Of a stretch of DNA of 64,000 bases, positions 1,423-53,674 are shown piece after piece. Made by a program: the position numbers and the translations under genes. Source of the DNA: Antedon mediterranea (lineage: Eukaryota > Animalia > Echinodermata). The stretch spans positions 16,101,881 to 16,165,880 of the forward strand of contig NC_092678.1 of NCBI RefSeq assembly GCF_964355755.1, given 5' to 3'. Position 1 is the first letter of the stretch; each line of letters starts with the position of its first letter. The notes below the pieces were generated by a model. It had not been told where the DNA came from. It saw only the letters and a program-made list of their open reading frames with translations, and made no database searches.

Positions 1423-3438
1423 ATGAGAAAAGCCCAGGCGTTGTTAAAATGCCGATCTAACAGCACCATATTGGCCTTTCTGTTGTTTGTCTCTGTCGTC
1501 TCTGTTGTCATTATGCTGGAGTTTGAACTTGCAGTGAATAAGAACAGCTGGCACAAGAATGTCATTGTGCCATTATGGGCTCATCATCGCCGGTAAGTTA
1601 TTTACATTTTTTCCTCCTAAATTTTATATTTGTATTGTCCACCAGAACAAAAAAAAAATTGTTTAGTTTTGTTGTTGAATGTGCCATTTTAATGTCACAT
1701 AATAAAAAAAAACGTCAAATTGGATCAATGGATTTGGAATACCCAGAACAATATACATACCTGTAGAATAATTCTGTCTACCTTAAGAAGGCCTACTCAA
1801 AATATTATCTAATATTTAATTAAACGAATGAAATAACATTCTATAGACTTAGAATAACATTATACAAATGGTAAAACGATTACTAATATCAAAACACATT
1901 TAAAATACCTTAAAGAATTTACTATACTGAATTAAAAAAATTCTCATGAATTTGGAATTAGAAATGTGAATTATAAGTGGCATTTCTTATAAACATTTAA
2001 TTAACAATCAATAAGTTTAAATTAATCTATATTTATTTATCCTGATTTGTTGAAAATATATGAAAGTTTATATTGTATCTATCAACATCAAATTAGAGTA
2101 CAAAGAATAGATAAATACAACCACCATCACAACATGTTTTTATGTGAATTGTGTTAATCAGATCTACTAATAATTCTAACTATAACTATAGACCTAGAAT
2201 CAGTATATTTATTTACTACTATTTTGTTTTTAAATTTCAGTGAAATCGATGGAAACAATGACTATGTGTATTACAGTAATAAAACCAATGGCAACATAAG
2301 TGTACCTTCACCAACACAAGCGAAATGTACTGAAGTCGATTACATTGTGTTTCTAAAAACACACAAGACAGCGAGCACAACTCTAGCCTCCATTCTCGAG
2401 CGATTTGGCTACATCAGAAATCTACTTTTTGCTGTTAGTAAAAGTGGACATATTTTTTCTCTTTCAAATTTGTTCAACCGCGACATGGTACCGTCGCTCT
2501 TCTCTCTAAACTCTAAACGTTTAAACACATCATCTAAGCAAACTGGATATCATCTACTTACTAACCACGTACGATACAACCGTCCAGAAATGGACGCTGT
2601 AATACACGATGCTAAGTACATTACGATCATTCGCGAACCTGTCGCAAATTTCGAATCAGCTTTTGGTTATTTTGAAATAGCTAAACATCTTGGATTAACA
2701 AGTCATAAGAATCCTATTGAAACTTTCATGAAAACGCCGAAGTTATTTCTCGACAAACATTTCTACCAGTGGAAAAGAGCTAAAAACGGCCAATTATTTG
2801 ACCTTGGCCTAGAGCATGACTCATTTGATGACTACTACACTGCCAAGTATAAGATTCGGCAGCTGGACTCTGAATTCGATTTAGTTCTTATTACTGAATA
2901 TTTTGATGAATCTTTGATATTGTTGAAGAAGTTGATGTGTTGGAGTTTTGAAGATATTCTCTACGTTTCGAACGGAATACGAAGCGCTAGTCATCGATAC
3001 GCCCTCAACGATGAACTTCGAGCCAAAATACGGGAATGGAATAGTGCTGACGTCATGTTGTATACACATTTTAATGAAACATTATGGAGAAAAATTAAAG
3101 AATATGAAGGAAATTTCGACAAAGATCTCATCGAGTTCCGATTACGGCAGCAGCAAGCTATGAACAAATGTATTGACGATGAACGACTTAACAAGAACGA
3201 CAGACGAGAAATTAAATATGTCTTAAAACCTAACATGACAAAGTCCATTTTCTGTCAAAATTTGCTAAGAGATGATGTAGCATATACTGATTTGATTAGA
3301 AACAAAATGAAGCAATATGGCCTGTATTTATCCTCCTCACCTAAGAAAAGTGTTCCCATTCTTCCGAGGGCACGAAAGCCACATTCTTCTTACAATCATT
3401 CGCGTCGTAGGCCTCAACGACATGTTAGAAAAACTTAA
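1423..3438 (+). CDS. GAL3ST: Galactose-3-O-sulfotransferase, copy A; exons 1423-1592 and 2241-3438 (455 aa, type II Golgi membrane protein)
   Basis: Exon 1 MRKAQ...ILAFLLFVSVVSVVIML (signal anchor) ends CG|GTAAGT; acceptor TTTCAG at 2240 joins in phase 2 to the long ORF; PAPS motifs FLKTHKTASTT and IIREPVANFESAF; EYFDESLILLK family motif. Confidence 0.93.
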
Positions 3439-4995
3439 AATATGTATTTGTTAAAATTGTAGTAGTATGCCATTATCTATCAACACACTTGAGTTGTTAG
3501 AGGACGGTAATTTTAATGCAAACTTTTCTTCACATTAACGTGTTTCTGACACTCTCTTGACGATGACTATCCAAAAATAAACTCGAACAAGGATTATTGA
3601 GTTACCAGGTAATTAGTGATTGTTACGCAATCAATTCTATCAAGAATAATTTCATAAATTTCCATTTTACTTTGTAAAATCGATATGCTGGTAATATTCG
3701 TCAACATCAATTAACTAGTTAATCGGTGAATGTTCAAGGTAATTTGGAAAAGTCCGTTGATCTCTGTTTTTAAAATGATCAATAACTATCAGATTCCTAC
3801 AATTTTTTAAAAAAGATTAGTTAGTTAAAAGTTAAATATGGAGAGTGTTAATCTGTCTGTGTTTCGCTATTGTACAATATTACGATAATGATGATGATAA
3901 TCTCAATTAATAACGTAACTATGGTATATAATGTTGCATCATGTTTTGTAAATTGACTTATAATAATTAATTGTTATAGTATATGTTGTGAAACGTTGGG
4001 TGTTTTCACAAATTATAATAATAAAAAAAAGATGTACAGTTTTAAATAGTCTACTGTGTTTCGACTTAATATTTAAAAACTATTGAAGCCACTAAGGATA
4101 GATTTAAAGAGAATGCTTCCATTTATTAAGCTATTCCCCCAAGGCCTCTTTGTTAAACTTCCATCTGAAGTTTTCAAGAGACATCCACCAAGTACCAAAT
4201 GAGTAAGTATTTTTTGTCACATTATCTTCTTTGGGATTTGGCAGTCCACACGGTGGTTTCGATTATAATAACTATGGACATAAATTGTGTTTTCAACGCG
4301 CTTTTATTTTTTACGCTAACCAAAGCCTTTGTTGTTAAGGTTTTGCTGCACGTTTGACTGAACGCGAGAGCCAAGAGAACATCGCAGAGATAGCGATAAT
4401 TACTAAGCTAGTAAATTAAACGTTACAATCATAATATAAAATTTTAACAACAAATATTAATAATTGCAAGTAAATATACTAGTTTTACAACAAGCAATGA
4501 AGTAATACTTCAAATTCTGCAATATTAATTCAGTTATTGGTAAAAATAGTACGATAGTTTTAACGATCGTATTCGATAGATATAATTGTAAATAATTAAA
4601 TATCGCCCTCAAAAAAAGCGCAAAGTACCTTGCACTCATCGTCTGATATCTGTCGAACGTAGTCACTTCACCGAAAACTGACTGTTCAACGATCATTTTC
4701 AATATTTATTCTTTCACCGTTTAAGTTTTCGTTTTGACGTAAAAACTGGTTAGATCTCCACACACCTGGAAAATAAGACTACTTTTTAAACTATAATGAC
4801 ATTTGATGTGAGTATTTTGGCATATTAAGATGCCTAGCCAGAGAGGGATACACTGAACTACCTGTATAATTCATAGAACGTTATTTACATTATCATTTTA
4901 CTGTATTTCATTGTATTATTTGTGTTGTGTAAATAAATTTCTGATTACAAAAATTACATAATTAATTAGGCATAGGCCTACGAATAATACTAATT

Positions 4996-5825
4996 ATGGA
5001 TTTCCTTTCTGAATCTTTATTAAATATTTGTAGAATTTGAATAAAATTCAAAATTTCTGACCGAAAATATGAACTTAAAAGCATCAAAACACAAACTTTA
5101 AATTTTCTAAACATTAAAATTGTTGAAGAAGATAAAAATGTTCATCCATCATATGTTTGTCATACTTGTCAATCAGCTGCATACAAACAAACGACATTAA
5201 TTACACCTTACATCTGGAGACAACACGATGATTTACATTGCACAGCTTGTTATCTTTATGAATATCAACAGAAACAAGGTCACAGGATAAAATTCAATAA
5301 AACAACTTTCATGCAATATTTAAAATTCAATTCATTAACTGAGCAATTCACCCTTTATGACCAATCAGCACTGTCTTTGTTTCAATGTTCTATTGTAAAC
5401 ATATTCTGTCGCTTGATAATGTAGAAACTCCGTGTTCCCACCATTTTTGTATGTACTGTCTCTGTCAATTTTCTGTACTCTTCGACTACGTAAATTTCCA
5501 TGTTTTGCCTGTGCGTCACCGATAACATTTGAACGTGACATGAAAAAACCATCATTACTAGTAGGCCTACAACAATCTTTGCAAACGGTTGAATTGCAAT
5601 TTCGGTTGTGTAGAAAATGTCTGAAGTATAACGAGTGCAGTCAGCATAAATGCACAACAGAGGCTGAGCAACGGTATAATGCTGTAACCAATTCAATTAA
5701 GACCATAAACAAGGAAATTGTTGACGATAAGATACCCGAACCTTTCCAGCAAGGAAGTTGGTATACAAATTACTAAAACAAACAAAAGAAATTGAGTTAC
5801 CAACAAATGGAAGAGAAGGCCTGGG
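4996..5825 (+). pseudogene. Decayed transposase N-terminus homologous to the RAG1 non-core region (Zn-binding/Chapa domain + C3HC4 RING); catalytic core absent
   Basis: Manual translation: NICRI*...DKNVHPSYVCHTC...WRQHDDLHCTAC; after a frameshift near 5394, QCSICKHILSLDNVETPCSHHFCMYCL; after a second frameshift, FPCFAC...CRKC...HKC. One stop (5038-5040) and at least 3 frameshifts. Confidence 0.85.
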
Positions 5826-6107
5826 TGAGTTATTTTTTTTAGAAAGCCAACATTTTTCACAAAACCACTGTACCAAAGTCCAGAGATTTTATTGAATAAT
5901 GGGCAAATCAAATTAACCTAAATATTATAATATAATAGTATATATATTTTAGACATTATTTTTAAAAACTGACCATCAATTTCAACTACTCACCATGGCT
6001 TCAAAGAAACACGCGTTCTTGCTCGCCATCCCATAATAAGATAAAATAACCGCTCATTTAACATGTTCTCATGAATATTCATATTTTTTTCGTTTTTGAG
6101 GCTCTAA

Positions 6108-6987
6108 TATGGAACGCCGTTTACGCAACATTTCAATGATATGAATTTTATGACGCGATATGTGAATGAAATGCATCGATATGAATTGAATGGTGCGATA
6201 TATGAATGAAATGTTTTGAATTGAATGCTTTGAATTGAATGTTTTGAATGAAATGTTTTGAATGAAATGTTTTGAATGAAATGTTTTGAATAAATTGTTT
6301 TGAATGCAATGTTTTTAATGAAATGTTTTGAATGAAATGTTTTGAATGAAATGTTTTAAATGAAATGTTTTGAATGAAATGTGTGAATTGAATTGAAAAG
6401 TCAAACTATTGATGGCGTATGTCATTCCCGCTCGCGATTTTTTTTCTCAACCTCTTAGGCCTAAGCGTGGGTACCCTCATCTCCTTTCCACGCTGCCTTT
6501 ACAGAGAATCCTAACAGACCTGGGTTCGGAAATATGTATTCCAATGTTTCAGGTCTGTTAGGATTCTCTGTAAAGGATCCATATTGATGACAGCGTGGAA
6601 AGGAGATGAGGGTACCCAGGCCTAGGCCTAAGAGGTTAAAACAAAATCGCGAGCGGGAATGACATACGCCGCCAATAGTTTGACTTTTCAATTCAATTCA
6701 AACATTTCATTCAAAACATTTCATTCAAAACATTTCATTCAAAACATTTCGTTCAAAACATTTCATTCAAAACATTTTATTCAAAACATTCAATTCAAAA
6801 TATTTCATTCAAAACATTTCATTCAAAACATTTCATTCAAAACATTCAATTCAAAGCATTCAATTCAAAACATTTCATTCATATCTCGCGCCATTCAATT
6901 CATATCGATGCATTTCATTCACATATCGGGCACATATCGCGTCATAAAATTCATATCATCAAAATGTTGCGTAAACGGCGTTCCATA
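6108..6987. mobile_element. Foldback (fully palindromic) MITE nested in the RAG1-like transposon
   Basis: Arms TATGGAACGCCGTTTACGCAACATTT... are reverse complements to a centre near 6540; each arm has a 15-bp array (GAATGAAATGTTTT-type); CTCTAA duplicated at 6102-6107 and 6988-6993. Confidence 0.88.
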
Positions 6988-7411
6988 CTCTAATTCGTTA
7001 ATTGTATAGGTCACTCACAAAATCCAAGAAAAAAACGTGGCTTCCGGGTATACATTTAGTGCGCCCTCTCTGGTTAGTTTATGGAAAATATTAGATTAAA
7101 ATTATAGAGGGTGTATGACTTTTTGTCAATAACGAAACCACCGTGTCCACTGCATGACACATCACTCATAAAGTTCTCAATATGCTTCTATATTTTGCCA
7201 TTTCTCTAGCTCGGTCTCTTTTCATTTTCCCTATCCTTAGTTGCCAATCTGCTTGTCAATGTATTATCCACATATGTTTAATCTATATGAAACACAAACA
7301 GTTTCCCCACTGCAGTACGCCGCTGTGTGACATCCGATTCGTCTGTATGTTGCTACTGAGATGTTCATGGGCTATATGAAAAGTTCTTAAACAAAATATA
7401 ACTGATTTATG

Positions 7412-8028
7412 AAAATGTACAGCACTAGGTGCATACTTAGTGAAAATGAATTTTTCTATGCAAACAATCCTACAACTGGCAATCTATGGATATAGGCTTA
7501 TCAAAGCGAGACTGATTTCACATGGGTATCGACAGAATGCAGTAAATATAAAAGTACATAAATACCTGGAAATATCTAATAAAATATATGTTCAGACATG
7601 TTTAGAACATGGAGGTATTTACCTCCATGTTTAGAACTTATACTCTTATTTTTCAAACTGTTTAAAGTAGCAGCGCAAACCAAAATTACGTTTTGTGTGA
7701 ACGCGTTTATTATTAGTGTGTTTAAAATCGGGATGAAAAAACGGGAGTAATTCGAGTTATCCCATTCAATGTTTTAGACATAATCAATTGAATTATCTTA
7801 TATTTTAATACAGTTTTCTTTGTAATTTACTTGTAGTTCTGTAGTAAGTAAAGTGTGGTTTGTGTATTATAGGTTATTAATTTCTTTTGTTGTTTATGCA
7901 GATAAATGAGAACCAAATGATCATAAACCCGGTGAAGGTGAAGACTGTGTTGAGGTTGAAAATACGAAATCAACAGACACATGGAATGATGGCCCTTGTT
8001 ATAGGTTAAACGCATATGTGTGTGAAAT
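7412..8028 (+). pseudogene. C-type lectin pseudogene (remnants of two CTL exons)
   Basis: 7412-7555 and 7902-8028 align to lectin exons 55982-56148 and 56484-56618 with several frame-breaking deletions; signal-peptide exon missing. Confidence 0.85.
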
Positions 8029-8196
8029 AAGTAAGCGGATATATCAACTATTAAAGATGTATTGTCCCCCAAAAATATGAAAAATTAAGATTAATTAAAT
8101 AAGACTTTGAATAGGTTATTTTGTAGTTTTAATAAAGTTAATCACTTCAGTAGAACAAAAATGGGGTAAACAATGTTTTCACTTATAAAAGTGACA

Positions 8197-9274
8197 ATGA
8201 TTTCGGCAGCACTTGGTCCTTTGAAGGAAAGAAACGGTTCATCTCGTCAGGCTATTGCTAATGTAATATAATGTGTGGAGGTTTTACTGTATTAAAGTAT
8301 CGCTTGGTTGATTGAATGTCACAGTTGTTTATTCAATAATACGTTATAATACACCATCAATACAATATATAAATACAGAAAAAGGAACAAAGTATAAGAG
8401 TGATGCAGCTGTAAGTGAGGTGTGGCTGTAGATGTGCTTCTGAAGAAGTATCGGTAAGGTGTGTGCTCCAAGAAGTGTATGTGAGGTGTATATCGGCTTC
8501 AGTTAATTAGCATATGTCATCATCATCTCTTAGGTCAATGATTGGTCATAAGTTGGTCCAGGGCCTTTCTGGAGGGATTGATTAATTGTATATTAAGGTA
8601 TTTCAATGATGGATATCATTGTCAAATATGTACTTAAATAGTGTCAATCTCTATTGGTTCAACAATGGGAAAGTTCATAAAGTTAAGCAAAGTGTTTTCA
8701 TTAGGGATTTAATATATGGAGTAAATGTTTAAAACATCTGGACTGGACCTTCTGTGGAAAATTCATGAACTCAATTGAATTGTAATACAAAGGTTGATTT
8801 CGCAATTATAAATTTATATCATTACATTACACTAAGTACATTTTTGCCAACTACAAAGTCGATGCCAACATAAAAAAAACCTATCTCCGTATGGCGTTGA
8901 AACGCGGAGTCGAGAGCAACAAACTAGTCCAAACCGAAGGTACTAGAGCCAGTGGTTTATTCAAGCTAAATCAGACTGCAGCAAAAGTTGATGCGGCTGC
9001 AAAGGCAAAGAAGGAACAGCTAAGAATAAGGCAGTTGACCAAAAAGACCAAAAAAACAGCTGCAAAGAAGGCAAAGAAACCAGCTACCAAGTCACTTAAA
9101 GAAGTCGGAAAAAAGAAGCCATCTTTTAAGCCTAAAAAGGCTAAATCTCCTGCAAAGAAGCCAAAGACCAAGAAGGCCAAAAATCCGAAAGCTAAAAAAG
9201 GCTTCAATATCACCAAAGAAGGCAGCTGCAAAGAATTAAAATATTTACGACCAAAAACCAAACGGCTCTTTTAG
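8197..9274 (+). pseudogene. H1: Histone H1 orphon/pseudogene, 5'-truncated and split by a solo LTR
   Basis: MISAALGPLKERNGSSRQAIA (8197-8259) resumes at 8832 as KYIFANYKVDANIKKTYLRMALKRGVESNKLVQTEGTRASGLFKL, then a K/A/P-rich tail. Confidence 0.9.
8262..8831 (-). mobile_element. Solo LTR (570 bp)
   Basis: TGTAAT...ATTACA termini; 4-bp TSD CTAA (8258-8261, 8832-8835); AATAAA on the minus strand near the left end; removal restores the H1 frame. Confidence 0.85.
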
Positions 9275-9296
9275 AGCCACCAAATATCCTAAAGAG
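9264..9296 (+). terminator. Histone 3' stem-loop and purine-rich downstream element
   Basis: GGCTCTTTTAGAGCC-ACCA (one base shorter than canonical) followed by AAAGAG. Confidence 0.85.
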
Positions 9297-10382
9297 ATTT
9301 GATCGCTTTCACGTATATCCTTTACTGAAATAATAAAATGTTATGAATGCATAAAAAGATGATTTGGATATACGCCACATTTGTTTTATAATCCATTTAT
9401 GAAACATTACAAATAGTGCAATATTTTATAATAATTTGCTTTTTTTTTTAAATGGCAAAGAAAAAGTTATTATACACATGAACATAATACAGTATCACAG
9501 TTATGGATATAAAAGATGATTCCTTATATTAATATAGCATACTAATTTAAACATCATTGCTTATCAAAGAAAATAATTATAATTCTATTGTTGAAGGAGG
9601 TGGAAATGAATCAATTCATCTTCAATTTTTACTATCTTGAGATGCTTTGATTGAGTACATGCCACTAATTAAATGCAACTGGTGTTGATTATCAATTAAA
9701 TAGAATCGCTCCCGATTTCCCCTTTTGATATCTACGTTGTTTTTAGGTTCGATTGGATAGCTATTCCTTTCACCTTATACAGACGGGTATAATGTAATTG
9801 TAAATTACTGCATACATAAACGGTATATTTATTATAATTTATAAATAATGTCCATGTTACAAATGTTTCAACCTTTGATTTCGACGAATGAAAAGTTAAA
9901 TCTACTGAAGTGAATGAATAAAGGTTGAATTGGTTAACTAATATTTTTATATAACACAATATAAAACAAACGACGGTAAAGTGAGTCAACACATTTTATG
10001 ATTCAATATTTCGAACTTTCTTTGTTCAACTTCAGGAATGCATGACAAAGAAAAACCAACTTTTATTTCTCACAAAAATACAAAATCAATTGCTTTTATT
10101 GTTTACCATATCACATTTGATCATCCTCCTAGGCCTACTCCTAGTCAATTATGGTTATTGATTATTCGAATTACGTAATTAGTTTAGTAGCTCATCTACC
10201 TTTTTAGCAGGGCATAATGAATATCGTAGCTAGGCTAGGCCTACTAGCGTGAAATCAACCAATTATTTGGGTGGTACGAGGCGGTACGAGGGGGTGGTGT
10301 ATAGGAAGTTAAGTACGAGTTGGCGTAGGTACGAGTCGACCAGGGTAAACCCACTAGCCCTACTAGAGCATAGACTATAGTC

Positions 10383-11531: not shown

Positions 11532-12778
11532 GGGTGCAGGTCAAGTCGGCCCTATAACCGTCTCGGCCAAAGTCAAGTCGGCCGCACGTCAAGTAGGCCC
11601 AAAGTCAACTCGGCCCCAAGTCAACTCGGCCTCAAGTCAACTCGGCCTCACGTCAACTCGGCCAAAAACTAATCGGTCAACTCGGCCACAATAAAGTATG
11701 GAACGCAAAAAGTGCTTAATATTATTATGATTCTTACTATCCACGCTTTTAAAAAAATGAATAAAAAAAAAATATATAATTAAATAATATCATATAAAAA
11801 AATGAACTCATTCCCCCGGTCAGTGAAAACACGTAGCAGTTGTAGAGTCGAAAAAGCTGCCAAAGGCGCAGCTACGAATTGTTTTCAATTGTGCAATTTG
11901 AAATTTTATTAAACGTATTAATAAAGGAAATTTGGTGAAATCATTCCTAATTTTTTTGCTAAATATATTATTGAGGCCGAGTTGACTTGAGGCCGAGTTG
12001 ACTTGAGGCCGAGTTGACTTGAGGCCGAGTTGACTTGAGGCCGAGTTGACTTGAGGCCGAGTTGACTTGAGGCCGAGTTGACTTGAGGCCGAGTTGACTT
12101 GAGGCCGAGTTGACTTGAGGCCGAGTTGACTTGAGGCCGAGTTGACTTGAGGCCGAGTTGACTTGAGGCCGAGTTGACTTGAGGCCGAGTTGACTTGAGG
12201 CCGAGTTGACTTGAGGCCGAGTTGACTTGAGGCCGAGTTGACTTGAGGCCGAGTTGACTTGAGGCCGAGTTGACTTGAGGCCGAGTTGACTTGAGGCCGA
12301 GTTGACTTGAGGCCGAGTTGACTTGAGGCCGAGTTGACTTGAGGCCGAGTTGACTTGAGGCCGAGTTGACTTGAGGCCGAGTTGACTTGAGGCCGAGTTG
12401 ACTTGAGGCCGAGTTGACTTGAGGCCGAGTTGACTTGAGGCCGAGTTGACTTGAGGCCGAGTTGACTTGAGGCCGAGTTGACTTGAGGCCGAGTTGACTT
12501 GAGGCCGAGTTGACTTGAGGCCGAGTTGACTTGAGGCCGAGTTGACTTGAGGCCGAGTTGACTTGAGGCCGACTTGACTTGAGGCCGACTTGACTTGAGG
12601 CCGACTTGACTTGAGGCCGACTTGACTTGAGGCCGACTTGACTTGAGGCCGACTTGACTTGAGGCCGACTTGACTTGAGGCCGACTTGACTTGAGGCCGA
12701 CTTGACTTGAGGCCGACTTGACTTGAGGCCGACTTGACTTTGGTCGAGACGGTTTAGGGCCGACTTGGATCGAAACCC
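11532..12778. mobile_element. TIR element carrying a 16-bp subterminal array
   Basis: Imperfect TIR GGGT...CAAGTCGGCCCTA; ATAAAAAG duplicated (8 bp; 10 bp if termini are GG/CC); empty site at 14121-14142. Confidence 0.8.
11971..12738. repeat. 16-bp minisatellite TTGAGGCCGA(G/C)TTGAC x48
   Basis: 768 bp = 37 G-type units followed by 11 C-type units (switch at 12563). Confidence 0.97.
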
Positions 12779-24779: not shown

Positions 24780-27480
24780 TTTAGGCGGTCGTTTCTTAAA
24801 CTAAAGCATTTTCTAAAACATTAAAATAAAATTATTTCTCTTGATATGGCCATTCCTTAAGTTAATACTTTTTTCAAAGTATATAAAAAACAGTCTTAAT
24901 TCTCTTTTATTTCTAAATACATAATTCAAATAGGTATATATATTTTGATTTTTGATTTTAATGTATTTCTGTCTCTCAGATTGATATATAAAGGACAGCT
25001 AAATAAAAAATGCAATTTGTCTTCAATTTCACCAGTATTACAAAATAAATAGATTCTATTTTCTCTAATTATTTTAAAATGTCTTCCCTTCTCAATAAAT
25101 AAATTATGTGTTGATAAACGAAATCTTGATAAAAGTGTCCTGAACTTAAAATTTAAATCATGTAAATAGTCATCTGTAACATAATCAGCTTTACAATCAT
25201 TATAAAATCGCAAACGTGGGTTTTGTTGGAGACTGTCTCTTTCTTTATGTAAATCTGTATCGTATACCATCTGGCTGAAATTATGTAAGAAATTATTATT
25301 TATATAATTTAAATAAAAAATATAATTAAATCCGTAATAGTTAAGAATATATTAATGACTACTAATATAGTGAGTGAGTGGCCGAGCGGTTAAGACAGTG
25401 GAACCGTAATTACGTAGCCATAACATCGGCAGGGGTTCGAGGCTCACTCACTCCATGGTTCTGGTGGTAGAACGAGTCTTCTCGGATAAGGACTATAAAC
25501 CATAGGTCCAGTGTACACATCTAGCTCGTGTGCACTTTAAAGAACCTAGTACATCTTTCGAGACGAGTAGGGGGTTACCCCGGTGTATTAGTACATCACA
25601 GCCACTGATCACCAACTGGGCACTCTGGGAGACCAGTCTTTGACTAAAGAGGTTACCCAGTATAAATATAAATTTCAATTCAATATTTAACATTAAGTGC
25701 CCAGCAGTCGCTTCCGTTCTCGGCCCAGGTCTTTTGTTGAAGAAGACATATTTTTGATAGTCTTGTGTCTTCCATCATTAATATTTTAATCCAGTAACTT
25801 ATCATTCTAATAATGTCTGTAATACTGTAATTGGATATGGCCTACTTCACTTCTGGCCGCCTCGTTGGGACACGACTGTTGGACATTTAATGTATATTTA
25901 CAATGGTTAAGATGGATATTTTCAATTTCTTTTCCTTCTATATGCCCCCATATTTCGCATCCATATAAGATAATAGCGAGGATCTTTGTCTCAAATAGCT
26001 TTTCCTTAATTTTAACAGAATTGTAACCTAAATCAGATAATTTCCTTCTTAAATTAAACATGGCTCTTTTTGTCTTGTTTATTGTGACCTTTTCCATGGT
26101 GTTCCATTTACCTTGGCTGTTAATGGTGAAACCTAAATATTTAAAATTATTTACAATTTCTATATAATTTCCATTTAGCGAAAATTTATCATTGTTACTT
26201 ATTTTTCCTCCTTTTCTGAAAACCAATATTTTTGTTTTTACATTATTGATATTGAGGCTAATTTCTGTGCAATATTTCTGTAATTGATCTATTTGTTTTT
26301 GAATTCCGATTTTAGAATATGACATGAGCATAAGGTCATCTGCATATATTAAGTGCGAGATAACTGTTGTACCTATTGAACAGAAATGTAAATCATTTTC
26401 AAATAAAAATTGTTTTAGGTCATAAAGAAACATAATAAATAATATGGGCAATAGGAGACAGCCTTGTTTAAGTCCTCTGGTGCTTTTAAAACTATTTGTT
26501 AGTCCATGTTGTGTTTTAATTTTAATATTTACATCCTTATATATTGCTCTTATAATATTATATTAATATATAAAGGAAGACCCATTTGTTTAAGTTTAGT
26601 AAATAAAATATTTCTACTAATACTATCAAACGCTTGCTTGAAATCAACAAATACACAATAAAGTTTTCCCCTTTTCTTATTTAAGGCCTTTTTAACTAAA
26701 GTGTCTAAAATGAACATGTTATCGGTTGTGCTGTATCCCTTTCTGAACCCTGCTTGTTCTTCTGGTATAATATCATTTTGCTCTACCCATTCTCTGATTC
26801 GTTTTTCTATAATCCATGTAAATGTTTTGCTAAAAATAGGTAATAAAGTAATGGGTCTGTAATAGTTTACGTTATTTGGGTCATTCCCTTTGTAGATGGG
26901 AACTAAAATTCCAATTGTCCAACTGTCTGGATATTTACTAGATTTAATAATAAAATTAAAAATATTAGTAATTATTTGTAAAATATATAGTAGGTAAGGG
27001 TCTTAAAAATATTAGGTGTTAAACCATCAATTCCCGATGATTTATTTAATTTAAAATATTTAATGCTGTCTATAACTTCTAATATTATAATCAGGGGGGT
27101 ATTATTCTGAGTTAGAGCTGGATTTTCTATTAAGGGTGGCTCGTTGCTTCAAACTGATTTATTGAATACCGATTTGAAGTAGTCATATCAATTTTTACAC
27201 TTTATAGAAATATTGCTTAATAATTTCTTTGAGTCTTTAAACATGTCCCAAAATCTTTTTTCGTTTCTGTGTAAAGCTGTTTTTCTCCTCATCTCTTTCA
27301 AATATTCTATGTTTATTTTTAATTAGGTTTTTATAGACTATTTTGCTTTCTACATATTCTTTATTCGCATAATGGAACGTGTCATTATCGAACCATGGCT
27401 TGTCTACGTTTGGTCTATTGTTATTGCTAATGAATATGCATGATTTAACCTTCTTTTCAAACTTTAGCAAGAATGCACTG
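24780..27480 (-). mobile_element. Degenerate non-LTR retrotransposon ORF2 (RT + C-terminal Cys/His motif), CR1/L2-group-like
   Basis: YRPITLL, QAGFRKGYSTTDNMF, FVDFKQAFD, QGCLL, LIYADD, FKYLG, and CNTGEIEDKLHFLFSCPLY; many frameshifts. Confidence 0.88.
25370..25686 (+). mobile_element. tRNA-derived SINE with a Deu/Nin-like central domain, inserted in the LINE
   Basis: A box TGGCCGAGCGG, B box GGTTCGAGGC; core TCGGATAAGGACTATAAACC...AAAGAACC...GAGTAGGGGGTTACCCCGGTGT resembles the DeuSINE domain as recalled; (TTCAA) tail. Confidence 0.75.
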
Positions 27481-40579: not shown

Positions 40580-43500
40580 ATGAGAAAATCTCGGGTGTTG
40601 CCGATGCAAGGGCGATTTAATGGCAACAAATTGGCCTTTCTGTTGTTGGTCTCTGTCATCTCTGTTGTCATAATGCTGCTGGAGTTTGAACTTGCAGTCA
40701 ATAAGAACAGCTGGCACAAGAATGACGTCATTGTGCCATTTTGGGCTCATCGTCGCCGGTAAGTTATTTTAATTTTTTCTTTCCTAAAATTTAAAGTTAT
40801 ATTGTCCACCTGAAAAATTAATTTGTGGTATTTTTTTAATATACCATTTTAATGTCACGTATTTATTTATCCATTCTAGTTTATTGAAAATATATGAGAG
40901 TTCAAATTGAGTCTATTAACCCAATGTAAAAGAACGAATACATCATTACATAAGGTCACTTTCATCAGTTGACACAAGATCAAAGGTCAACATTTTTATA
41001 TGCATATTATTAGTTAATTATTTGATCAGTAAAGTTATAGTATTTCATTATAACGTTAATCAATATAATTATAATACTGTAATTAATCAAATCAGACATA
41101 AAATGTTACGCTGACCTTAAATAAAATAGACGGTTAAAACACAACTTATAACACTTTGCAAAATTAATTTTGCAAAGATGGTCAGAACATGGTTGCAGGC
41201 CTGCAATATTAATTTTGAGGCAATATAATATAACAATTTAAGGCAATAAACACTCTGATTTGATCTGCTCTGTTTATGTTGGCAATATATAATTTTGGTT
41301 TTTATTTGTTTTGGTACTCCGATAACTGAGAATACTTAGCCAGTCTGTGCACCTTAACTGGTAAACAAAATACAATTATGTGGTTTTTGTCTAGATTTGG
41401 TAGCTTTGTAAAGTTTACAGATTAGTCTTCATTGGTTTTTCACAGGCGCCTTGAGCACTTTGGTGGATAAGCGTTTAACAAAATCTTACTATACTATTGG
41501 TTGTCACTTTTTTCATCCAAATTGCAATCAGAACATACCAGGGTTAACATTTATCAATATTTGCTTATACTTTTGCTTAAGCTAAAATATTTAAGAAGTG
41601 CTTAAGCAAATAACTTAATCTTATTTATCAAACCGTCTTGGAAAAATGTTCTTGTTCAATTTTACTTTGCACATGCGCAAAATTAAACTCTAGAAGGCAG
41701 CAAATTATGTCTTAAGACAAAAACATTCTTACTTTCGTGTTCGCATTAGCTTTTTTCTCTTAAGCCCCTTTCTCACAGAGCTGTGTGCCAGGAATGTTGC
41801 GGGAATATACCATTACCATGCCGGTATGATTTTCTGTGAGAACGGGTCGTCTTGGCATCATGCCGGCATCGACATGACCTGCTTTAGACCTAGTAATATT
41901 ACTGGGATATTCTCCGCAATGCCAAACGGGCATTCTGTGAGAACGTAACGCCAATATATTTAATTCCCCGTCGAGGCTTTGACACCTTGCGCGGTCAAGT
42001 GTATCACTTTGGCGCCGATTAATTTCAATTAACAATAATAATGTCAAAGTGGAGGGATAATGAGATAAGAGAGCTGTTAAAATAAGGGGACAAGAAGAAA
42101 TTTGTAGCATATAATCTATAGGCCATAGGCCTACTTAGCTCTTTGTTGGTGCCTGACCCTTCGTCGCCTTGTAAATTGTACAGCCTGCAGATTTCTCCTT
42201 CTAAGGTGTTTTACAGATTGCCGATGACGGCTAATTAATTGCTGTACCTGTATAATATATGCACAATATACTGTACATAGCATGTATTGCATAAATATGC
42301 TATATATGAAGATAATAATCTGTAACTTAAAATTCGCCGCCATTGTAATATAGTGTGTTGAGGTACTGACTTGCAATGAGGACTCTACTCGCTTGACTGC
42401 AGTAACACATATATTGTTTATTCATTATAATATTTCAACTTGGTGATACAATAATAATGATGCAACTAACAAACTGACTAAGGAACAGAGGATGCGGTGA
42501 TGCTGTCGGTGAGATGTGAGTGCAGGTCTGCTTCTGAGGAAGTGGCTGTGAGGTGTGTCTGGGCTCTTCTGAAACTTGGGGGTATATTGGCTTCGGTTCA
42601 TTTGCATATGTCGTTACATTATCTCAGAAGCTAATGATTGGTCCTAAGTTGATCCAGGGGTGTTTAAGTGGGAGTGATTGATCTTATCTGGGGAGGTTAC
42701 AATGATGAATTGGCCCTTTCAAATCTTTGCTTAAAACTGTCAATATCTAATTGTTTTACGATGGGAACGGTTAGAGAGGTCAAATAAACTGTTTACTTTG
42801 GGATTTAAATGAGAAATTTAAATGAAATATCAAAATTCACAAATGTATCATAAATTGTTATTTTCAGTTATTTCTAATCTTTGATATAATTACTTTATGG
42901 GAGAAAAAAAAATTAGAAAAAAAATGTGAAAAATTGGATTATTTAGGCCTTATAAAATTCTCTCTAGCAACGGCTTTTGGACTATAAAAAACTAATTTAC
43001 CTATGTATTTTTGAAGAAAAAAAGACAGAGCATGTTTAGAAAGCTTATTCAGAATCAACCAATCACAGGTTCTCTCTCAAACAGGCTTTATTGTCATGGT
43101 TCAGTGGCTATGAAACCACATGTTATTCATTCATAAAGCCAAGCTAACATTGTTAACATTGTCAACAAAAGCTATCAAAATGTATCAAAGTAAACAGTCA
43201 AAATTTGTCTGAAATTTGTGTTTAGATAGTCTTTATATATTTTAGAATACTTTAGTATTGAATTTAAATGGGATCTTCAAGAAATAAAGCCAGAAAAAGA
43301 GCTAGAAAGTTTCATGGTATACAAGCATAGTAAGCCCAGGCCTGATGATGATCAGAATGAGTCTAACAGTGACGCTCAAGAAGGTACTAGTACTAGGCCT
43401 AGCCTTAATTTATCTGCTTCAGCAATAAAATTGAAGAGATCTAGAGAAAGTTCAGAGTCAGGTAATGAATCTATAGGACTTGAACATTGCCAGGATGGAT

Positions 43501-46500
43501 ATGTATTTGTTAGTGTTGAGTTGCTATGTAGTTTTATTGAATGCAACACAAGATGTCATGAATGCAAATGTGAGGTATCATGCGGACTGAATGTAAAAAA
43601 CAAACAAGGTTTCTGCCATTTCATCAGCGTTCAATGTACAGAGTGTGATTGGAGTACACAGTTTCAAACTTCCAAAGATGTTGAAAAAGATGAATCTGTA
43701 CAAGGAAAGCTCACAAAAGAGATAAATGTACGCATGGTGGCTTATGCCAGGGCAGTCGGAAAAGGACATTCATGCCTCACAAAACTTTGTATATTGGCAA
43801 ATTCACCCCCACCTATGACAGAGGATTGCTACAACAGCATATTTGAAAAAAAGTCCTTGCAGCATCAACTGAAGTTGCTAGAGAGAGCATGAGAAAAGCA
43901 ACAAGTGAAATAAGAACTGATGATAGCGTCAAAGATTGTGGCCTTCATGGGAAAACTCAAAACGTAAATGAATGTTTGAACAAACTTATTTGGGACAGAT
44001 GTTCAAAAGAATATTTTGTAGAGAGCCCTATTATAAAGGATGCTGTAAATATGACTGTCAGCTATTTCAATGATGGATGCAGTAGCTTTTTGGAACTTTT
44101 TCTTTTATTAAATATAACACCAGGAACTTTGACAGAGTTGGCATGCGAGAAAACTGACTAAAAAAGAATCATGCATGCAGAAAATAAAAAATCCGATCGA
44201 CAAAAGACGAACATCACTTAGACACATAAAAAAAAGGGTGGATTGACAAAAGGCAACAAGAAGAAGGAGATGTGTATACACCAGGGGGACATTAGTGGGG
44301 TTTTTGCTCAAAAAGAACAATAAAAATGAACTTTTGCATGCGTGCTGATATATTATAATGTGTATATGATTTTCCGCCTCCGTTTCCGTGGAACCATATT
44401 TTGATCAATTTGGTATCTTTGAAACATGATTACTCAAAATCAACTGTATCAATCTTGATAAAATTTGGTATACATACAGCACTAACTGTACTCTACTGCA
44501 TAAAATAAAATTAATAATGTTGTGTTTGTTAATAACTTAATTTACTCATATGAATAATATAATGAGCCATCGAAACATTTTAAAAAGTCGTATATGATTA
44601 ATATTATCAATCTGTCATAAAATATTTTAGGTTTTAAAGGTTCATGCAGTGCATTATGATGTAATAGATGTAATTACAAAGTTTGATTGAATTCCATTTA
44701 GCCAATTTTAAGATATGGTGTTTTAAAGATTTACTGTAATTTGATACGTTGGGGGCCATTTTGAATATATAATTAGCGCTAATTAAAAATTTGTTTGTTT
44801 AAATATAATTGTTATGACCTAATTTACAAATAAAACTTACTGTTACCTTTATTTAAACTAAAATTAAATAAATGACTTTTTTACCCATGTTCTTTTAAAA
44901 CATCTGGACAATTTCTCCTCTGGACATTCTGGGTCAAATTCGTGAACTTAGTTGATTTCTAATACAAAAGTTGATTTCTCAATTATAAAAGTATATCATT
45001 ATAATTATTACACCATATATCGCTATACAAAAATAATAACAATAAAGGACGCCCTCAATAATTATTTTGTCAGATACTTTTTATTGGCCGAATATGCCCG
45101 ACTCCTTTCTCACAAAAATCCGGTATATACCGGTTATATTTCCGGCACGATAGTCCAATGAGAATGGGTATATGCCGGTAACAATACCGGCACGACGCCA
45201 GCGTCATACCGGTATATAGCAGGCACATCTGTGAGAAAGGGACTTTAGCAATGGCTGCACTATAACATTTTATCTCCGTATTTTCACTCCCAACAAGAGA
45301 GGGCATTCTGGCTACTAGTATTTTTATTACTTGAAATAGAGAAAGAGCACAACAGTCGGAAATACATACGAAAATCATTTGCTCATTCTGTGAAGATTTT
45401 GGTCATTTGGTTTAGTTTGCAACAAAGTTTTGATTATCTCTACACGTAACCACCAGGAATGATTTCTGATTTCTCTTTCGAAAAAAAGAAGAGACTCTAC
45501 AGCTCACTTTGTCGGTTGGTTGGTAAAAACTAATTTGAGCACGTGACTGCAGCCATGTATATGGCTTTGTTTATATTAGTTGACATTGACTTGGTTCTTT
45601 TAGTCTCCGACCCTTGTCACTGCCAATAATGATTTTTGATATCCCATTCATTTTATCCTAATAGTCTATTGTTTTCCAATACAATGTAATGTTTTATTAT
45701 GAATAAGCTTAAATTGAAATGAAAATATCTTACGTTCGTTATATAGACGCATAAAGAAGAGAATCAGATGAGTTTATTCTCTCCTGACATCATACTCCTA
45801 ACTTTGAACAGTATATATGCAACCTTGGGAAAGGTGGATCTTAACTGGCTTTCCTTCTCTTCAGAAAACAAAATGTGTACTACACTATGAACAGGAATCT
45901 GTGGCTAGCAACAATATCGAGACTCATATAAACAGTGTGGTCTGTTTGTGTAGTGAGTTGTGGATTCCAGTTTTTATTATTCAATAAAAGAAAAAATCTA
46001 AGTCATTATTGATCAAGATTATAGATCTGAGTAAATGTGTCGTCAACTAGGGAAACATGCAATATTCTCTTAATATTTTCAAAAGGACATAGTGACGAAT
46101 CCAAGATCATTAAATAGAAAATGATGGGATCAGTGAATGGCCAGAGTCCTAGAAATTGTGAATTGAAATTAAAGGTGGGGGTGGTATTCTCTGATTCTGA
46201 CATTAGGGTTGGTGAGTACCCTGCCAAAATACGCAAACTATGCCAAAATACGCAAATTGAGGGCGCTATGCTTTGCCAAAATACGCAAATCATGCCAAAA
46301 TACGCAAATTTGCTTTACCAAAATACGCAAATCAAGCCAAAATACGTAAATTGAGAGCGCTATGCTTTGCCAAAATACGCAAATCTGCTTTGCCAAAATA
46401 CACAAATCATGCCAAAATACGCCAATCTGCTTTGCCAAAATACACAAATCATTCCAAAATACGCAATTTTAGGGCGCTATGCTTTGACATAATACACAAT

Positions 46501-46867: not shown

Positions 46868-46927
<60 letters not shown>

Positions 46928-49900
46928 CAATGATGTTGCGTAGCACTGTGTAAATTATATATAAATCATACTGTAAATTATAGAAACAGTGCTCATATTC
47001 GGAACATGATCTCATAATCGCGTCGAGCATAGCTCATTGGCGAAAGTTCCGTATTTTTTAGTTGTATGAAAAAATGTCTCTGGCTGGATTCGAATCATTG
47101 ATTTACATATACACAATATGATTTAAAAAACCGTTGCGAATTAAAGTTGGAATTTATTCTGACTTGTCAAGCCTCCACTGATTGTGAGGGCGTTTGTTGT
47201 ATGAGAGAATGTATCTGGTGGGTGAAAATCTGTGATAATACCATACATGGCTCTGTGGCCTAGTGGTATGATACTCGCCCTGTAAGCGAGAGGTTGCAGG
47301 TTCGAATCCAGCCAGAGACATTTTTTCATACAACTAAAAAATACGGAACTTTCGCCAATGAGCTATGCTCGACGCGATTATGAGATCATGTTCCGAATAT
47401 GAGCACTGTTTCTATAATTTACAGTATGATTTATATATATATATATATATAAACAAATCAGGCACAGAACATTAATTCTAAACCGCCCGGTGATATATAT
47501 ATAAATCAATGATGTTGCGTAGCACTGTGTAAATTATATATAAATCATACTGTAAATTATAGAAACAGTGCTCATATTCGGAACATGATCTCATAATCGC
47601 GTCGAGCATAGCTCATTGGCGAAAGTTCCGTATTTTTTAGTTGTATGAAAAAATGTCTGGCGGGATTCGAACCTGCAACCTCTCGCTTACAGGGCGAGTA
47701 TCATATAACCACTAGGCCACAGAGGAGCCATGTATGGTATTATCACAGATTTTCACCCAGATACATTCTCTCATACAACAAACGCCCTCACAATCAGTGG
47801 AGGCTTAACAAGTCAGAATAAATTCTAACTTTAATTCGCAACTGTCGTGTCAATTGATTGAAATTGAAAATACGGAACTTTCGCCAATGAGCTATGCTCG
47901 ACGCGATTATGAGATCATGTTCCGAATATGAGCACTGTTTCTATAATTTACAGTATGATTTATATATAATTTACACAGTGCTACGCAACACCATTGATTT
48001 ACATATACACAATATTATTTAAAAAACCATTTAAAAAATATATACTGTATTTTAGCTAAAATTCAGTATATAAAATAATTTAACTTAATTACATAATGTA
48101 CAATAAACACATGATAGTATTGCCCAATAGAATTTACTCATTTTTTTAGGCACAGGCCTAGCCTAGGTAGGGCTTCTACTTCTAGGCCCTAGCTAGCTAC
48201 CATTTTAAAACCCAAAAACAATCGAAATAACTATTCCGAATCCGTCTTATGCTACATTACGCGAGTTAACATATTATTTCAGATGAAAAACATTGAGTTT
48301 TATATTGTTTTATCCATACGTAATTACACTGGCATTAAAGATATAACATTAAAATGTAGGCCGTTTATGAGCTATTTCGCCGATTTCTTATCGCTGGGAA
48401 ATTCCCCATCAGACAGCAGGGACATCGATCGATCGATCGAGGAGTAGGCCTAGGCTAGAGGCCTAGCGTGCATGCCGGAACGGGTGGAATATTATTGCTA
48501 TATAAATAACAAGTTTGAACAAAAGAGCTTACGAAAATCTTAGGTAAAAAAATCAAAATGCGGTAGAAAACGTCGAGATAGCGGTAGCGCGGTATATGGG
48601 TACTAAAAGCGGTAGACTACCGCGAGTAGCGGTAGACTTGGGACCCCTGAAAGTCTCGGCTTTGACTTTGAATTAACGGTGTTGCTGGAAAAAATTGCAG
48701 AGATTTGCTATCAGACGATCAAAAGCTTGAAATTACCGCGACGATAAACTTTCGCCGTGAGGGCACTATTTATGTATTTTTTCGGCTTTTGGAACTATCG
48801 CAAACATCGTTAAAATGTCTTGTTTTTAATAATATTCTCTAATCTTAGACAATTTGTCCTAATGCTAAATACAAAAAATAAAGCAAACACTGTAAGATTG
48901 GAAGAAAACTTTATTAATTGGTCATTGTAAGTAATTATATAATAATTGTAAATAATAGTTTTTATTTGGTTTTATAGTTACGTTCTATGATTGGTCAATA
49001 TTGAATCACAAATGATTTTTTATATGGTGATTGAATAGACACCTATAATCATAAAAATGTAATAAAATACCAAATTGTGCTTCGAAAAATGTGTTATAAT
49101 ACATATACATAATACATTGTTGTAATTGTTAAATTTTGAACTTTAATCCTTTATACTGTATCTCAAAAACGCTTCCTATCTTGATCGATTACCTTCCATA
49201 ATCGTTGTATGGCAATTTGTCCCTTTCGGGCAGTGATTCCCCCCTCTTGCAACCGGACTATAACGAATAGATAAATACAACCACCACCATAACATTTTAA
49301 ATTTAATAGAAAGCTCTATACTCTATAGTCAATATTTATTTACATATTATTTTGTTTTAACTTTTAACTTTTAGTGTAATCAATGAAACACAAGCGAAAT
49401 GTACTGATGGAAACAATGTGTGTAATGAAACAAATGACAACATAAGTGTACCTTCACCAACACAAGCGAAATGTACTGAAGTTGATTATATTGTGTTTCT
49501 AAAAACACACAAGACAGCCAGCACAACTCTAGCCTCCATTCTCGAGCGATTTGGCTACATCAGAAATCTACTTTTTGCCGTTAGTAAAAGGGGACATACT
49601 ATTTCTGATTCACATTTGTTTAACAGCAATATGATACCTTCACTCTCTTCTCTTAACTCTAAAGGTTTAAATATATCATCTATGGGAACTGGATATCATC
49701 TACTTACTAACCACGTAAGATACAACCGTCCAGAACTGGACGCTGTGATCCACGATGCTAAGTACATAACGATCATTCGCGAACCTGTCGCAAATTTCGA
49801 ATCAGCTTTTGGTTATTTTGAAATGGCTAAACATCTTAGATTGACAAGTCATAAGAATCCTATTGAAACGTTCATGAAAACGCCTAAGTTATTTCTCGAC

Positions 49901-50584
49901 AAACATTTCTACCAGTGGAAAAGAGCTAAGAACGGCCAATTATTTGACCTGGGCCTAGAGCATAAAACGATTGATGACTACTACACTGTAAAGCAAAAAA
50001 TTCAGAAACTGGACTCTGAATTTGATTTAGTTCTTATTACTGAATATTTTGATGAATCTTTGATATTGTTGAAGAGGTTGATGTGTTGGAGTTTTGAAGA
50101 TATTCTCTACGTTTCTAACGGAATACGAAGCGCGAGTCATCGATACGCCCTCAATTTTGAACTTCGAGCAAAAATACGCGAATGGAATAGTGCTGACGTC
50201 ATGCTGTATACACATTTTAATGAAACATTATGGAGAAAAATTAAAGAATATGAAGGAAATTTCGACAAAGATCTCGCCGAGTTCCGATTACGGCAACAAC
50301 AAGCTATGAACAAATGTATTGACGATGAACGACTTAACAAGAAAGACAGACGAGAAGTTAAATATGTCCTAAAACCTAACATGACAAAGTCCATTTTCTG
50401 TCAGAATTTGCTGAGAGATGATGTAGTATATACTAAGTTGATAAGAAACAAAATGAAGCAATATGGCCTGTATTTACCCTCCTCACCTAATAAAAGTATT
50501 CCCGTTGTCCCGGGGGCACGGAAGCCACATTCTTCTAATAAGCATTCACGTCGTCGGCCTCAACAACGTGTTAGAAAAACTTAG
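40580..50584 (+). CDS. GAL3ST: Galactose-3-O-sulfotransferase, copy B; exons 40580-40758 and 49375-50584 (462 aa)
   Basis: Exon 1 paralogous to 1423-1592, ends CG|GTAAGT; acceptor TTTTAG at 49374 joins in phase 2; catalytic exon open with the same PAPS motifs. Confidence 0.92.
42344..45012 (-). mobile_element. Solo LTR (related to 8262-8831) split by a Kolobok-like insertion
   Basis: TGTAAT...ATTACA termini; TSD CCAT (42340-42343, 45013-45016); 42344-42821 and 44895-45012 align with the two parts of the 8262 LTR. Confidence 0.8.
42822..44894 (+). mobile_element. Kolobok-like DNA transposon remnant; transposase pseudogene ~43268-44290 with the catalytic middle deleted
   Basis: KRARKFHG start, CHEC...CTECDW...INVRMV...PPPM and LHGKTQNVNECLNKLIWDRCSK motifs; TTAA at both junctions; TIR pair not evident. 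Confidence 0.72.
46222..46740. repeat. Complex minisatellite built on GCCAAAATACGCAAAT with three alternating linkers
   Basis: Core recurs about 20 times with linkers CAT, CTGCTTT and TGAGGGCGCTATGCTTT. Confidence 0.9.
46847..46923. repeat. (TA)n microsatellite
   Basis: Direct reading. Confidence 0.95.
46924..48030. mobile_element. Cluster of direct and inverted copies of a ~367-bp tRNA-containing repeat in (TA)n
   Basis: Forward partial 46924-47094, inverted 47094-47435, forward 47502-47843, inverted partial 47866-48030; same unit at 62247-62778. Confidence 0.8.
47249..47320 (+). pseudogene. tRNA-like sequence (tRNA-Pro-like D and anticodon stems) inside the repeat
   Basis: GGCTCTG-TGGCCTAGTGGTATGATA-CTCGC-CCTGTAA-GCGAG-AGGT-TGCAGG-TTCGAAT-CCAGC-CAGAGAC; stems partly mismatched. 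Confidence 0.65.
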
Positions 50585-53026: not shown

Positions 53027-53674
53027 GTTGCAAATATTCCTGGAATAATTATAATTTCAAAGTCAAAATTTTCAAATATTTCAAAATGTACACAACTTAG
53101 GCCTACCATTTGGCAGATAAGATTTTTGGAGGAGAGAATAAAACATCGGAAAATAGAAGATCTTGAAATCGCAGTTTTTCTAGAGCTCTAGAATACTCAA
53201 GAAAGATCTGATCTGAGGTAACTCTAGACGCAATATCCTAGGTAGTAGAACATGGGATGTCAGGACGCCCTCTTTCTAATCAGTATTCAGTAACCTTAAA
53301 AACAAAACGAGAGAAAGCGTTTCTCCACAGAGATCTAAATATCGCTCTCTAGACATGTAATTGGCTTAAATTATGTTTTATTCAGTACCATTGAACTACT
53401 GAACACTTTTGATTCGTAAAACCGTATATCAACAGGACACGCTGCTTGTACCGTATGCCAACGAACCACATTAGTATCAAATCAGTTATAGGCCTACTGA
53501 GAGAATGTTCATGAAAACAATACTTATGTTCCTACAGTACCTTGGGATGTGTAGGCCTATATTGTGATTTTTCAGAAGCAATGACAAATGTTTATCTTTT
53601 CCCAGTATCAAGGAACATCTTCACTTCATCAATATGAGGTTGATAAATTATATAAACATTATAAAACATTGTCT

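What the first reader, a model, noticed from the sequence alone, without database searches (positions are those of the whole stretch)
4249..7145. Transposon ends that read as an asymmetric 12/22(23) RSS-like pair around a RAG1-like gene
Seen: reading inward, the right end is CACGGTG + 12 bp (GTTTCGTTATTG) + ACAAAAAGT (7145-7118). The left end is CACGGTG + 22 bp + ACATAAATT (4249-4286). Established: the vertebrate RSS is CACAGTG-12/23(+/-1)-ACAAAAACC, so heptamers match 6/7 and nonamers 7/9 and 6/9, oriented outward like signal ends. The boundaries are fixed by the TCCA duplication and the empty paralogous site (51391-51405). Inference: an invertebrate transposon family may combine 12/23-like asymmetric ends with the RAG1 N-terminus. 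The 4-bp TSD points to Chapaev/N-RAG-TP rather than Transib/ProtoRAG (5 bp), which makes RSS-like spacing unexpected. Caveat: A-rich nonamers arise easily in AT-rich DNA and the left one is weak.
Basis: partly seen in the sequence, partly recalled or inferred. Interest (0 to 1): 0.92.

Follow-up and report, generated by a model that had tools for sequence, protein, structure and literature searches.

The report
Chapaev remnant with 12/23-like ends
This is a broken, enzyme-less copy of a jumping gene, likely of the Chapaev family (distant cousins of the antibody-gene enzyme RAG1), whose two ends carry a similar A-rich box one DNA turn further in on the left than on the right; that spacing matches the 12/23 signals of antibody-gene assembly and is likely an inherited end design, although its conservation and function are untested.

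Summary
Observation confirmed: 2,897-bp element, perfect 13-bp TIR, TCCA duplication, empty paralogous site; right end heptamer+12+ACAAAAAGT, left heptamer+22+ACATAAATT. A pair this close to the RSS nonamer at 12±1/23±1 arises in 0.1-0.3% of background pairs (post hoc); the left match alone is ordinary (5-6%). The ends share a 12-bp box offset by exactly 10 bp (p 0.02-0.19). A second copy type in a public run reads with a 23-bp left spacer. The gene is not RAG1: it is the broken Chapa-RING-zinc-finger start of a Chapaev-type transposase ending at an LPTxG motif, without catalytic core or RAG2; 0.9 kb is a nested IS3EU-like MITE. Best reading: a non-autonomous Chapaev derivative with bipartite, one-turn-asymmetric ends, a design published for Transib and RAGL but not found for Chapaev in my searches. 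Family-wide conservation could not be tested: no related ends were retrieved. Published Chapaev3 Merrow ends show a 9-10-bp offset in two species and none in two. The scan noted the same pattern before on other DNA (e1-10592701, same genome; e1-9572750, another genome; unchecked).

The parts
4245..4248 (+). Left target-site duplication TCCA
   Evidence: single TCCA at the empty paralogous site 51397-51400
4249..4261 (+). Left 13-bp TIR CACGGTGGTTTCG (heptamer-like CACGGTG plus 6 bp shared by both ends)
4273..4286 (+). Left inner box TATGGACATAAATT; its last 9 bp are the nonamer-like ACATAAATT (4278-4286), 22 bp after the heptamer
   Evidence: a second copy type in run X4 has 23 bp (table 7)
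4996..5305 (+). Chapa (RAG1-NZD-like) zinc-finger region of the transposase; ATG at 4996, stop at codon 15 in this copy
   Evidence: PF12560 E 0.019, below cut-off; Chapa-type homologs
5394..5660 (+). RING finger and following zinc finger, split by frameshifts near 5392 and 5470
   Evidence: match to P0004 RING, E 0.001; zf-C3HC4 only E 0.37; other copies carry one more base at both places
5731..5830 (+). Helix plus ELPTNGR (Chapaev LPTxG motif), then a donor-like GTGAGT at 5825-5830; recognisable coding sequence ends here
   Evidence: 13/33 identical to P0015, E 0.001; weak against P0014 (E 0.11)
6108..6987 (.). Nested high-copy palindromic MITE, TAT...ATA termini, 6-bp TSD CTCTAA; likely IS3EU type; not part of the Chapaev element
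   Evidence: depth mostly 10- to several-100-fold above the rest, with many different flanks; IS3EU hallmarks in PMC10045372
7118..7131 (-). Right inner box TATTGACAAAAAGT; its last 9 bp are ACAAAAAGT (7126-7118), 12 bp after the heptamer
7133..7145 (-). Right 13-bp TIR
7146..7149 (+). Right target-site duplication TCCA

Best explanation
This is an internally deleted, non-autonomous transposon, likely of the RING-bearing Chapaev group, whose two ends carry a 13-bp TIR and a similar inner A-rich box lying 10 bp further in on the left, likely an inherited one-turn-asymmetric binding design like that of Transib and RAGL ends. Shown: ends, 4-bp duplication, empty site, broken Chapa-RING-ZF start, no core, 10-bp offset. 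Inferred: an intact Chapaev transposase acting in trans cut at the CAC tips and inserted with a 4-bp stagger. A 10-bp offset keeps the box on the same helix face, so one DNA-binding arm (likely the region after LPTxG, where RAG1 and Transib have their nonamer-binding domain) would reach the box at both ends and would favour left-right pairing. A strict 12/23 rule is not assumed.
For: Joint match to RSS geometry at 0.1-0.3% of background. End-versus-end box 10/12 identical at offset 10, found without using the RSS consensus (p 0.02 for a 27-bp span). A second copy type varies inside the spacer (23 bp) and still aligns through the box. Protein relatives are Chapa-domain proteins, one with a DUF1280 Chapaev core, and the LPTxG motif matches. 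A low-confidence model of relative P0010 hits RAG1 cores first, with NBD-containing chains at the top (6cg0 E 2.5e-7; NBD-less 6oes 9.4e-5). Sister lineages have such ends: Transib 12/23 (PMC1131882), PflRAGL-A 10-bp asymmetry (10.1101/2023.08.20.553239), AanRAGL 4/13 spacers (PMC9435367). In Fig. S6 of PMC4079192 I counted a TTTGTTC box 10 and 9 bp further in at the 5' end of Merrow_TO and Merrow_LF.
Against: One family, essentially two copy types. The box p-value rises to 0.09-0.19 with 37-47-bp spans, and the left match alone is ordinary. Two of the five differences in the second copy type are not placed and may lie in or beside the box. No independent Chapaev ends were retrieved: 3 loci lacked definable ends and searches found nothing. 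Merrow_PM and Merrow_LC show offsets of 0 and 1, the Merrow box points the other way, and Garfield and Conan show no 10-bp offset that I could see. No sequence match of the Chapaev post-LPTxG region to the RAG1 NBD appeared. The model has mean pLDDT 46 and TM about 0.16.
Confidence: 0.57

Rival explanations
1. An ordinary Chapaev remnant: only the 13-bp TIR matters, and the A-rich words at 12 and 22 are a chance resemblance picked post hoc from many CAC-ended elements in AT-rich DNA.
For: About 1 in 600 random CAC-led pairs score as well, and a scan sees thousands of elements. Extra 6/9 matches occur at spacers 9 and 20. The box p is 0.09-0.19 on wider spans. Merrow copies with symmetric ends amplified in lampreys.
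Against: Both the RSS match and the end-to-end box give the same 10-bp offset. The lineage is one in which such ends are documented. The second copy type changes the spacer to 23.
Confidence: 0.3
2. The asymmetry is real but local: a recent net 10-bp insertion in the left end (or deletion in the right) of a once longer imperfect TIR of about 28 bp, tolerated because it is one turn, with no ancestral link to RSS.
For: The ends align as TIR, 10-bp gap, 11/14 match. The left spacer is AT-repeat-like (ATTATAATAAC) and varies between copies. Merrow has both states.
Against: It does not explain why the positions fall on 12 and 22-23 with AAA at nonamer positions 5-7.
Confidence: 0.1
3. A deleted RAGL (family A-like) or Transib-RAGL hybrid with a 5-bp TSD that lost one terminal base.
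For: The target GTCCAC allows a 5-bp reading. TSD length is labile in Transib (10.64898/2026.08.26.747230). RAG1 also has NZD-RING-ZF.
Against: The perfect TIR gives 4 bp. LPTxG follows the zinc finger after about 50 residues, as in Chapaev. The TIR lacks the A-rich positions 8-10 of RAGL TIRs (PMC7204232). There is no room for RAG2. Named relatives with a core are DUF1280 Chapaev-type.
Confidence: 0.03

Closest known systems
Chapaev transposons, RING-bearing subgroups (Chapaev-1/2_BF, -1/2_NV, -4/6/7_HM; PMC4411706 passages and Additional file 5)
   Same: CAC...GTG termini, 4-bp TSD, Chapa domain followed by RING and zinc finger, LPTxG motif as in P0010, P0014, P0015
   Different: This copy lacks the catalytic core; an RSS-like or one-turn-offset end structure is not described for Chapaev in the papers I could search
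N-RAG-TP of Aplysia (Panchin and Moroz 2008, not read; described in a PMC8355894 passage)
   Same: Transposon carrying only RAG1 N-terminal-like sequence
   Different: Here a RING is present (the Aplysia Chapaev-1/2/3_ACa rows in PMC4411706 file 5 lack it); N-RAG-TP end structure not seen by me
Transib5, Transib2_AG, TransibN1-N3_AG (PMC1131882)
   Same: Heptamer, 12/23-like spacers and A-rich nonamer-like box at transposon ends
   Different: Transib has 5-bp TSDs, a CACAATG heptamer and no Chapa/RING domain
PflRAGL-A and AanRAGL (10.1101/2023.08.20.553239; PMC9435367)
   Same: Heptamer, a conserved adjacent stretch, 9-10-bp length asymmetry and an inner box
   Different: They have 5-bp TSDs, RAG1L core and RAG2L; the PflRAGL-A TR2 is A-rich, here it is GTTTCG
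Vertebrate 12/23 RSS
   Same: CAC, 6/7 heptamer, AA at nonamer positions 5-6, spacers within ±1
   Different: Nonamers only 7/9 and 6/9; the first 6 spacer bases are identical at both ends; no evidence of RAG cleavage or a pairing rule

Membership tests
Chapaev (CMC) | TIRs with 5'-CAC...GTG-3' termini | tested here: met
   hallmark from PMC4079192
Chapaev (CMC) | 3-4-bp TSD | tested here: met
   TCCA with empty site; one site only, and a 5-bp reading with a lost base is not excluded
Chapaev (CMC) | N-terminal Chapa zinc finger (with RING in two subgroups) | tested here: met
   RING split by frameshifts. Shared with RAG1/RAG1L, so not diagnostic alone
Autonomous Chapaev | DDE core with C(2)C, LH, H(4)H motifs | tested here: not met
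   tblastn of P0010, P0014, P0020 finds no core in the window; filed only as a non-autonomous derivative
Chapaev (CMC) | Phylogenetic placement of the core | not testable with these tools
   core deleted and no genome held
RAGL/ProtoRAG | 5-bp TSD | tested here: not met
   4 bp with the perfect TIR
RAGL/ProtoRAG | RAG1L core and convergent RAG2L gene | tested here: not met
   only about 430 bp remain after 5830 outside the MITE; no such ORF; no RAG2 query was run
Transib | 5-bp TSD and core-only transposase without Chapa domain | tested here: not met
   4-bp TSD, Chapa and RING present (PMC4411706)
12/23 RSS pair | CAC heptamer start, AA at nonamer 5-6, spacers 12±1 and 23±1 | tested here: met
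   criteria from PMC1131882
12/23 RSS pair | Nonamer more conserved than spacer across copies | tested here: inconclusive
   one other copy type at about 3% divergence; two differences unplaced
12/23 RSS pair | Coupled cleavage needing one short and one long end | not testable with these tools
   needs biochemistry

The most novel reading that the evidence does not exclude
Chapaev transposons use RSS-homologous ends (heptamer, 12 versus 22-23 bp, A-tract nonamer) read by an NBD-like arm, so the 12/23 geometry predates the split of Chapaev from Transib/RAG, and an intact Chapaev enzyme would be a RAG2-free, RING-bearing transposase that prefers one short and one long end.
Probability: 0.3. Interest if true: 0.75.

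Novelty: new variant of a known kind. Interest (0 to 1): 0.45.

Why it matters
Where the 12/23 asymmetry came from is debated ('Transib seed' versus RAGL-A origin; PMC8355894, 10.1101/2023.08.20.553239). If Chapaev, the one other lineage that consistently retains a RAG1-like N-terminal zinc finger according to 10.64898/2026.01.24.700457, also has one-turn-asymmetric ends, the design is older than both candidates and stops discriminating between them. It could then be tested with a single-subunit enzyme. This copy is a dead remnant and gives one data point.

Tried and rejected
Homolog search with the window's N-terminal piece among longer proteins: 0 of 47 candidates. P0010 and alignment A2 gave only 2 full-length relatives each. 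In one search, 4 of 13 hits (P0001, P0002, P0005, P0006) are unrelated repeat proteins and were dropped. Metagenome scan: 3 of 110 stretches confirmed, none with definable ends. Viral and prokaryote-genome scans: nothing; phage records: nothing. DNA patterns in viral contigs gave about 240 stretches (120 fetched, none encoding a Chapaev-like protein) and one more match at L078, already among them; all treated as chance. (exact box only at the two ends) is circular and not counted. No RNA holder is listed; X5 is only guessed to be RNA. Organism B contigs did not cover the left end, which proves nothing. The structure model was poor; the Atlas gave only a 0.76 unnamed hit; the VIA alignment could not be run. 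Ten other CAC/GTG pairs with a direct repeat in the window score 5-8 of 18; most are probably not elements.

Full report
Observation. The element spans 4249-7145 (2,897 bp; 2,011 bp without the nested insert) in a 33% GC animal window. It has a perfect 13-bp TIR, CACGGTGGTTTCG, and TCCA on both sides. A paralogous segment about 86-88% identical runs through the site with one TCCA, and contigs from 3 of 4 runs laid join 4243 to 7145; these may be the paralog rather than an empty allele. The target reads GTCCAC, so a 5-bp duplication with a lost terminal base is possible, but the perfect TIR makes 4 bp the simplest reading. The host was not identified here; earlier scan notes call it a feather star (unchecked).

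Is the RSS look more than chance? Right end: spacer 12, 7/9 match to ACAAAAACC. Left end: spacer 22, 6/9. Both keep AAA at positions 5-7. Allowing ±1 and either end assignment, a summed score of 13/18 or more occurs at 0.0022-0.0034 in window or element background, 0.0010 on shuffling the ends' own bases, and in 1312 of 810,901 pairs of CAC-led 45-mers. The right end carries most of this (about 1%); the left alone is 5-6%, and further 6/9 words lie at spacer 9 (left) and 20 (right). Without the RSS consensus, the best shared word between the ends is TATGGACATAAA / TATTGACAAAAA (10/12), starting at positions 25 and 15, an offset of exactly 10; shuffle p is 0.02, 0.09 and 0.19 for spans of 27, 37 and 47 bp. 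So the ends are better described as 13-bp TIR + 11 or 1 bp + a 12-14-bp box whose tail resembles the nonamer. The signal is suggestive for one element and not decisive after a genome-wide hunt.

Other copies. Public contigs show a low-copy family in organism A and a relative in organism B. In run X4 a contig at about three times the depth of the window's own junction carries a different flank, a changed tip (no clean CAC) and AATA in place of ATT, which makes the left spacer 23 bp; it aligns on through the box (tables 7, 8). It has five substitutions in 4265-4400; three are placed (4353, 4373, 4376) and two are not, so conservation of the box is not shown. At about 3% divergence (23 substitutions in 741 bp) the test has little power anyway.

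The gene. From ATG 4996 the frame gives the Chapa pattern (LxxxCRI, HPxxxCxxC, WxxHxxxCxxC) with a stop at codon 15. A RING and zinc finger follow across two frameshifts. Other copies have extra bases at these three places, so this copy decayed after insertion or descends from a decayed one. Of 13 hits, nine are Chapa-domain proteins; one is full length with a DUF1280 core (P0010, Amphiura), related to P0014 (Ephydatia). The last recognisable residues, ARKLVYKLLKQTKEIELPTNGR, match the stretch ending in LPTxG of these proteins (E 0.001, E 0.11). No core is present in the window. One X5 contig leaves the window after 5770 with letters that read KPMTITTMT in one frame, like TPMTFMHVT after LPTGG in P0014 (table 7); this is a weak hint of a longer family member, and the join position is unexplained. 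Positions 6108-6987 are a separate high-copy palindromic MITE with TA..TA ends and a 6-bp TSD, the IS3EU signature.

Mechanism. Shown: anatomy, TSD, non-autonomy, 10-bp offset. Inferred: movement in trans by a Chapaev transposase; binding of the inner box by the region after LPTxG, by position the counterpart of the RAG1/Transib NBD (that RAG1's GRPR motif follows soon after the zinc finger is recalled; the motif's role is from the bioRxiv passage). A model of P0010 was poor (mean pLDDT 46), yet its 22 Foldseek matches at E<=0.001 rank above all else, the listed ones are RAG1 cores, and NBD-containing chains score best over 670-695 columns. This supports overall kinship but gives no residue-level NBD match, and sequence searches found only the RING.

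Comparison with the literature. 12/23-like ends are published for five Transib families (PMC1131882), a 10-bp asymmetry with a nonamer-like box for PflRAGL-A (10.1101/2023.08.20.553239), and 4/13-bp spacers for AanRAGL (PMC9435367); asymmetry matters for ProtoRAG activity (PMC8289069). For Chapaev I found no such report: 0 papers hold chapaev + rag + heptamer + nonamer, and (30 of 288 listed) showed none. Kapitonov and Jurka 2007, Panchin and Moroz 2008 and Repbase entries were not available and may already note it. In Fig. S6 of PMC4079192 I counted by eye a TTTGTTC box ending at 34 or 33 (5' end) versus 24 (3' end) in Merrow_TO and Merrow_LF, but at 24 or 25 versus 24 in Merrow_PM and Merrow_LC; Garfield and Conan show no such offset. 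So the distant Chapaev3 group shows a one-turn offset in 2 of 4 Merrow versions, with the A-tract reversed, and it appears dispensable there.

What I saw of each paper: passages only for PMC1131882, PMC7204232, PMC8355894, PMC9435367, PMC8289069, PMC12730594, PMC10045372, PMC3014272, PMC3630058, 10.1101/100735, 10.1101/2023.08.20.553239, 10.64898/2026.01.24.700457 and 10.64898/2026.08.26.747230; passages plus Additional file 5 for PMC4411706; passages plus parts 1-2 of 3 of the supplement for PMC4079192. bioRxiv supplements were not seen and may hold further TIR alignments.

Earlier scan notes. e1-10592701 (same genome, intact Chapaev, 21/12 spacers) and e1-9572750 (another genome, box one turn further in) report the same pattern, and e1-10684944 an intact Chapaev transposase in this genome. 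I could not see their DNA and do not count them as evidence; they mean the idea is not new within this scan.

Verdict. Real feature, Chapaev-type remnant about 0.9 likely, inherited functional asymmetry about 0.57, true RSS homology with end preference about 0.3. New variant of a known kind; interest 0.45.

Noticed in passing
window 8143-9912: 12-bp TIR pair CACTTCAGTAGA with 3-bp TSD AAT enclosing a linker-histone H1 fragment (8798-9268, PF00538 E 5e-10): possibly a CACTA/EnSpm-type element carrying captured H1.
   Followed up: no
window 6108-6987: Very high-copy foldback MITE made of TTGAATGAAATG-type repeats, TA..TA ends, 6-bp TSD; likely IS3EU type.
   Followed up: partly
window 2158-8200 and 49332-56800: Duplicated block with a galactose-3-O-sulfotransferase ORF (PF06990) followed by C-type lectin exons; the element sits about 0.8 kb downstream of the first sulfotransferase ORF.
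   Followed up: partly
window 46900-48030 and 61960-62780: Nested palindromic repeats with CACAGTG/CACAAT words and TA tracts, a second foldback-type family.
   Followed up: no
window 11971-12767: Near-perfect tandem array with 64-bp and 16-bp periodicity giving long open frames on the minus strand.
   Followed up: no
window 43230-43886 and 24929-27002: A Mutator-like transposase piece (PF20700) and, on the minus strand, frames that read like a LINE reverse transcriptase (by eye).
   Followed up: no
window 5721-5772: Single-copy-depth contigs in X1 and X4 skip these 50 bp, and an X5 contig leaves the window at 5770 into sequence resembling the next Chapaev exon.
   Followed up: partly
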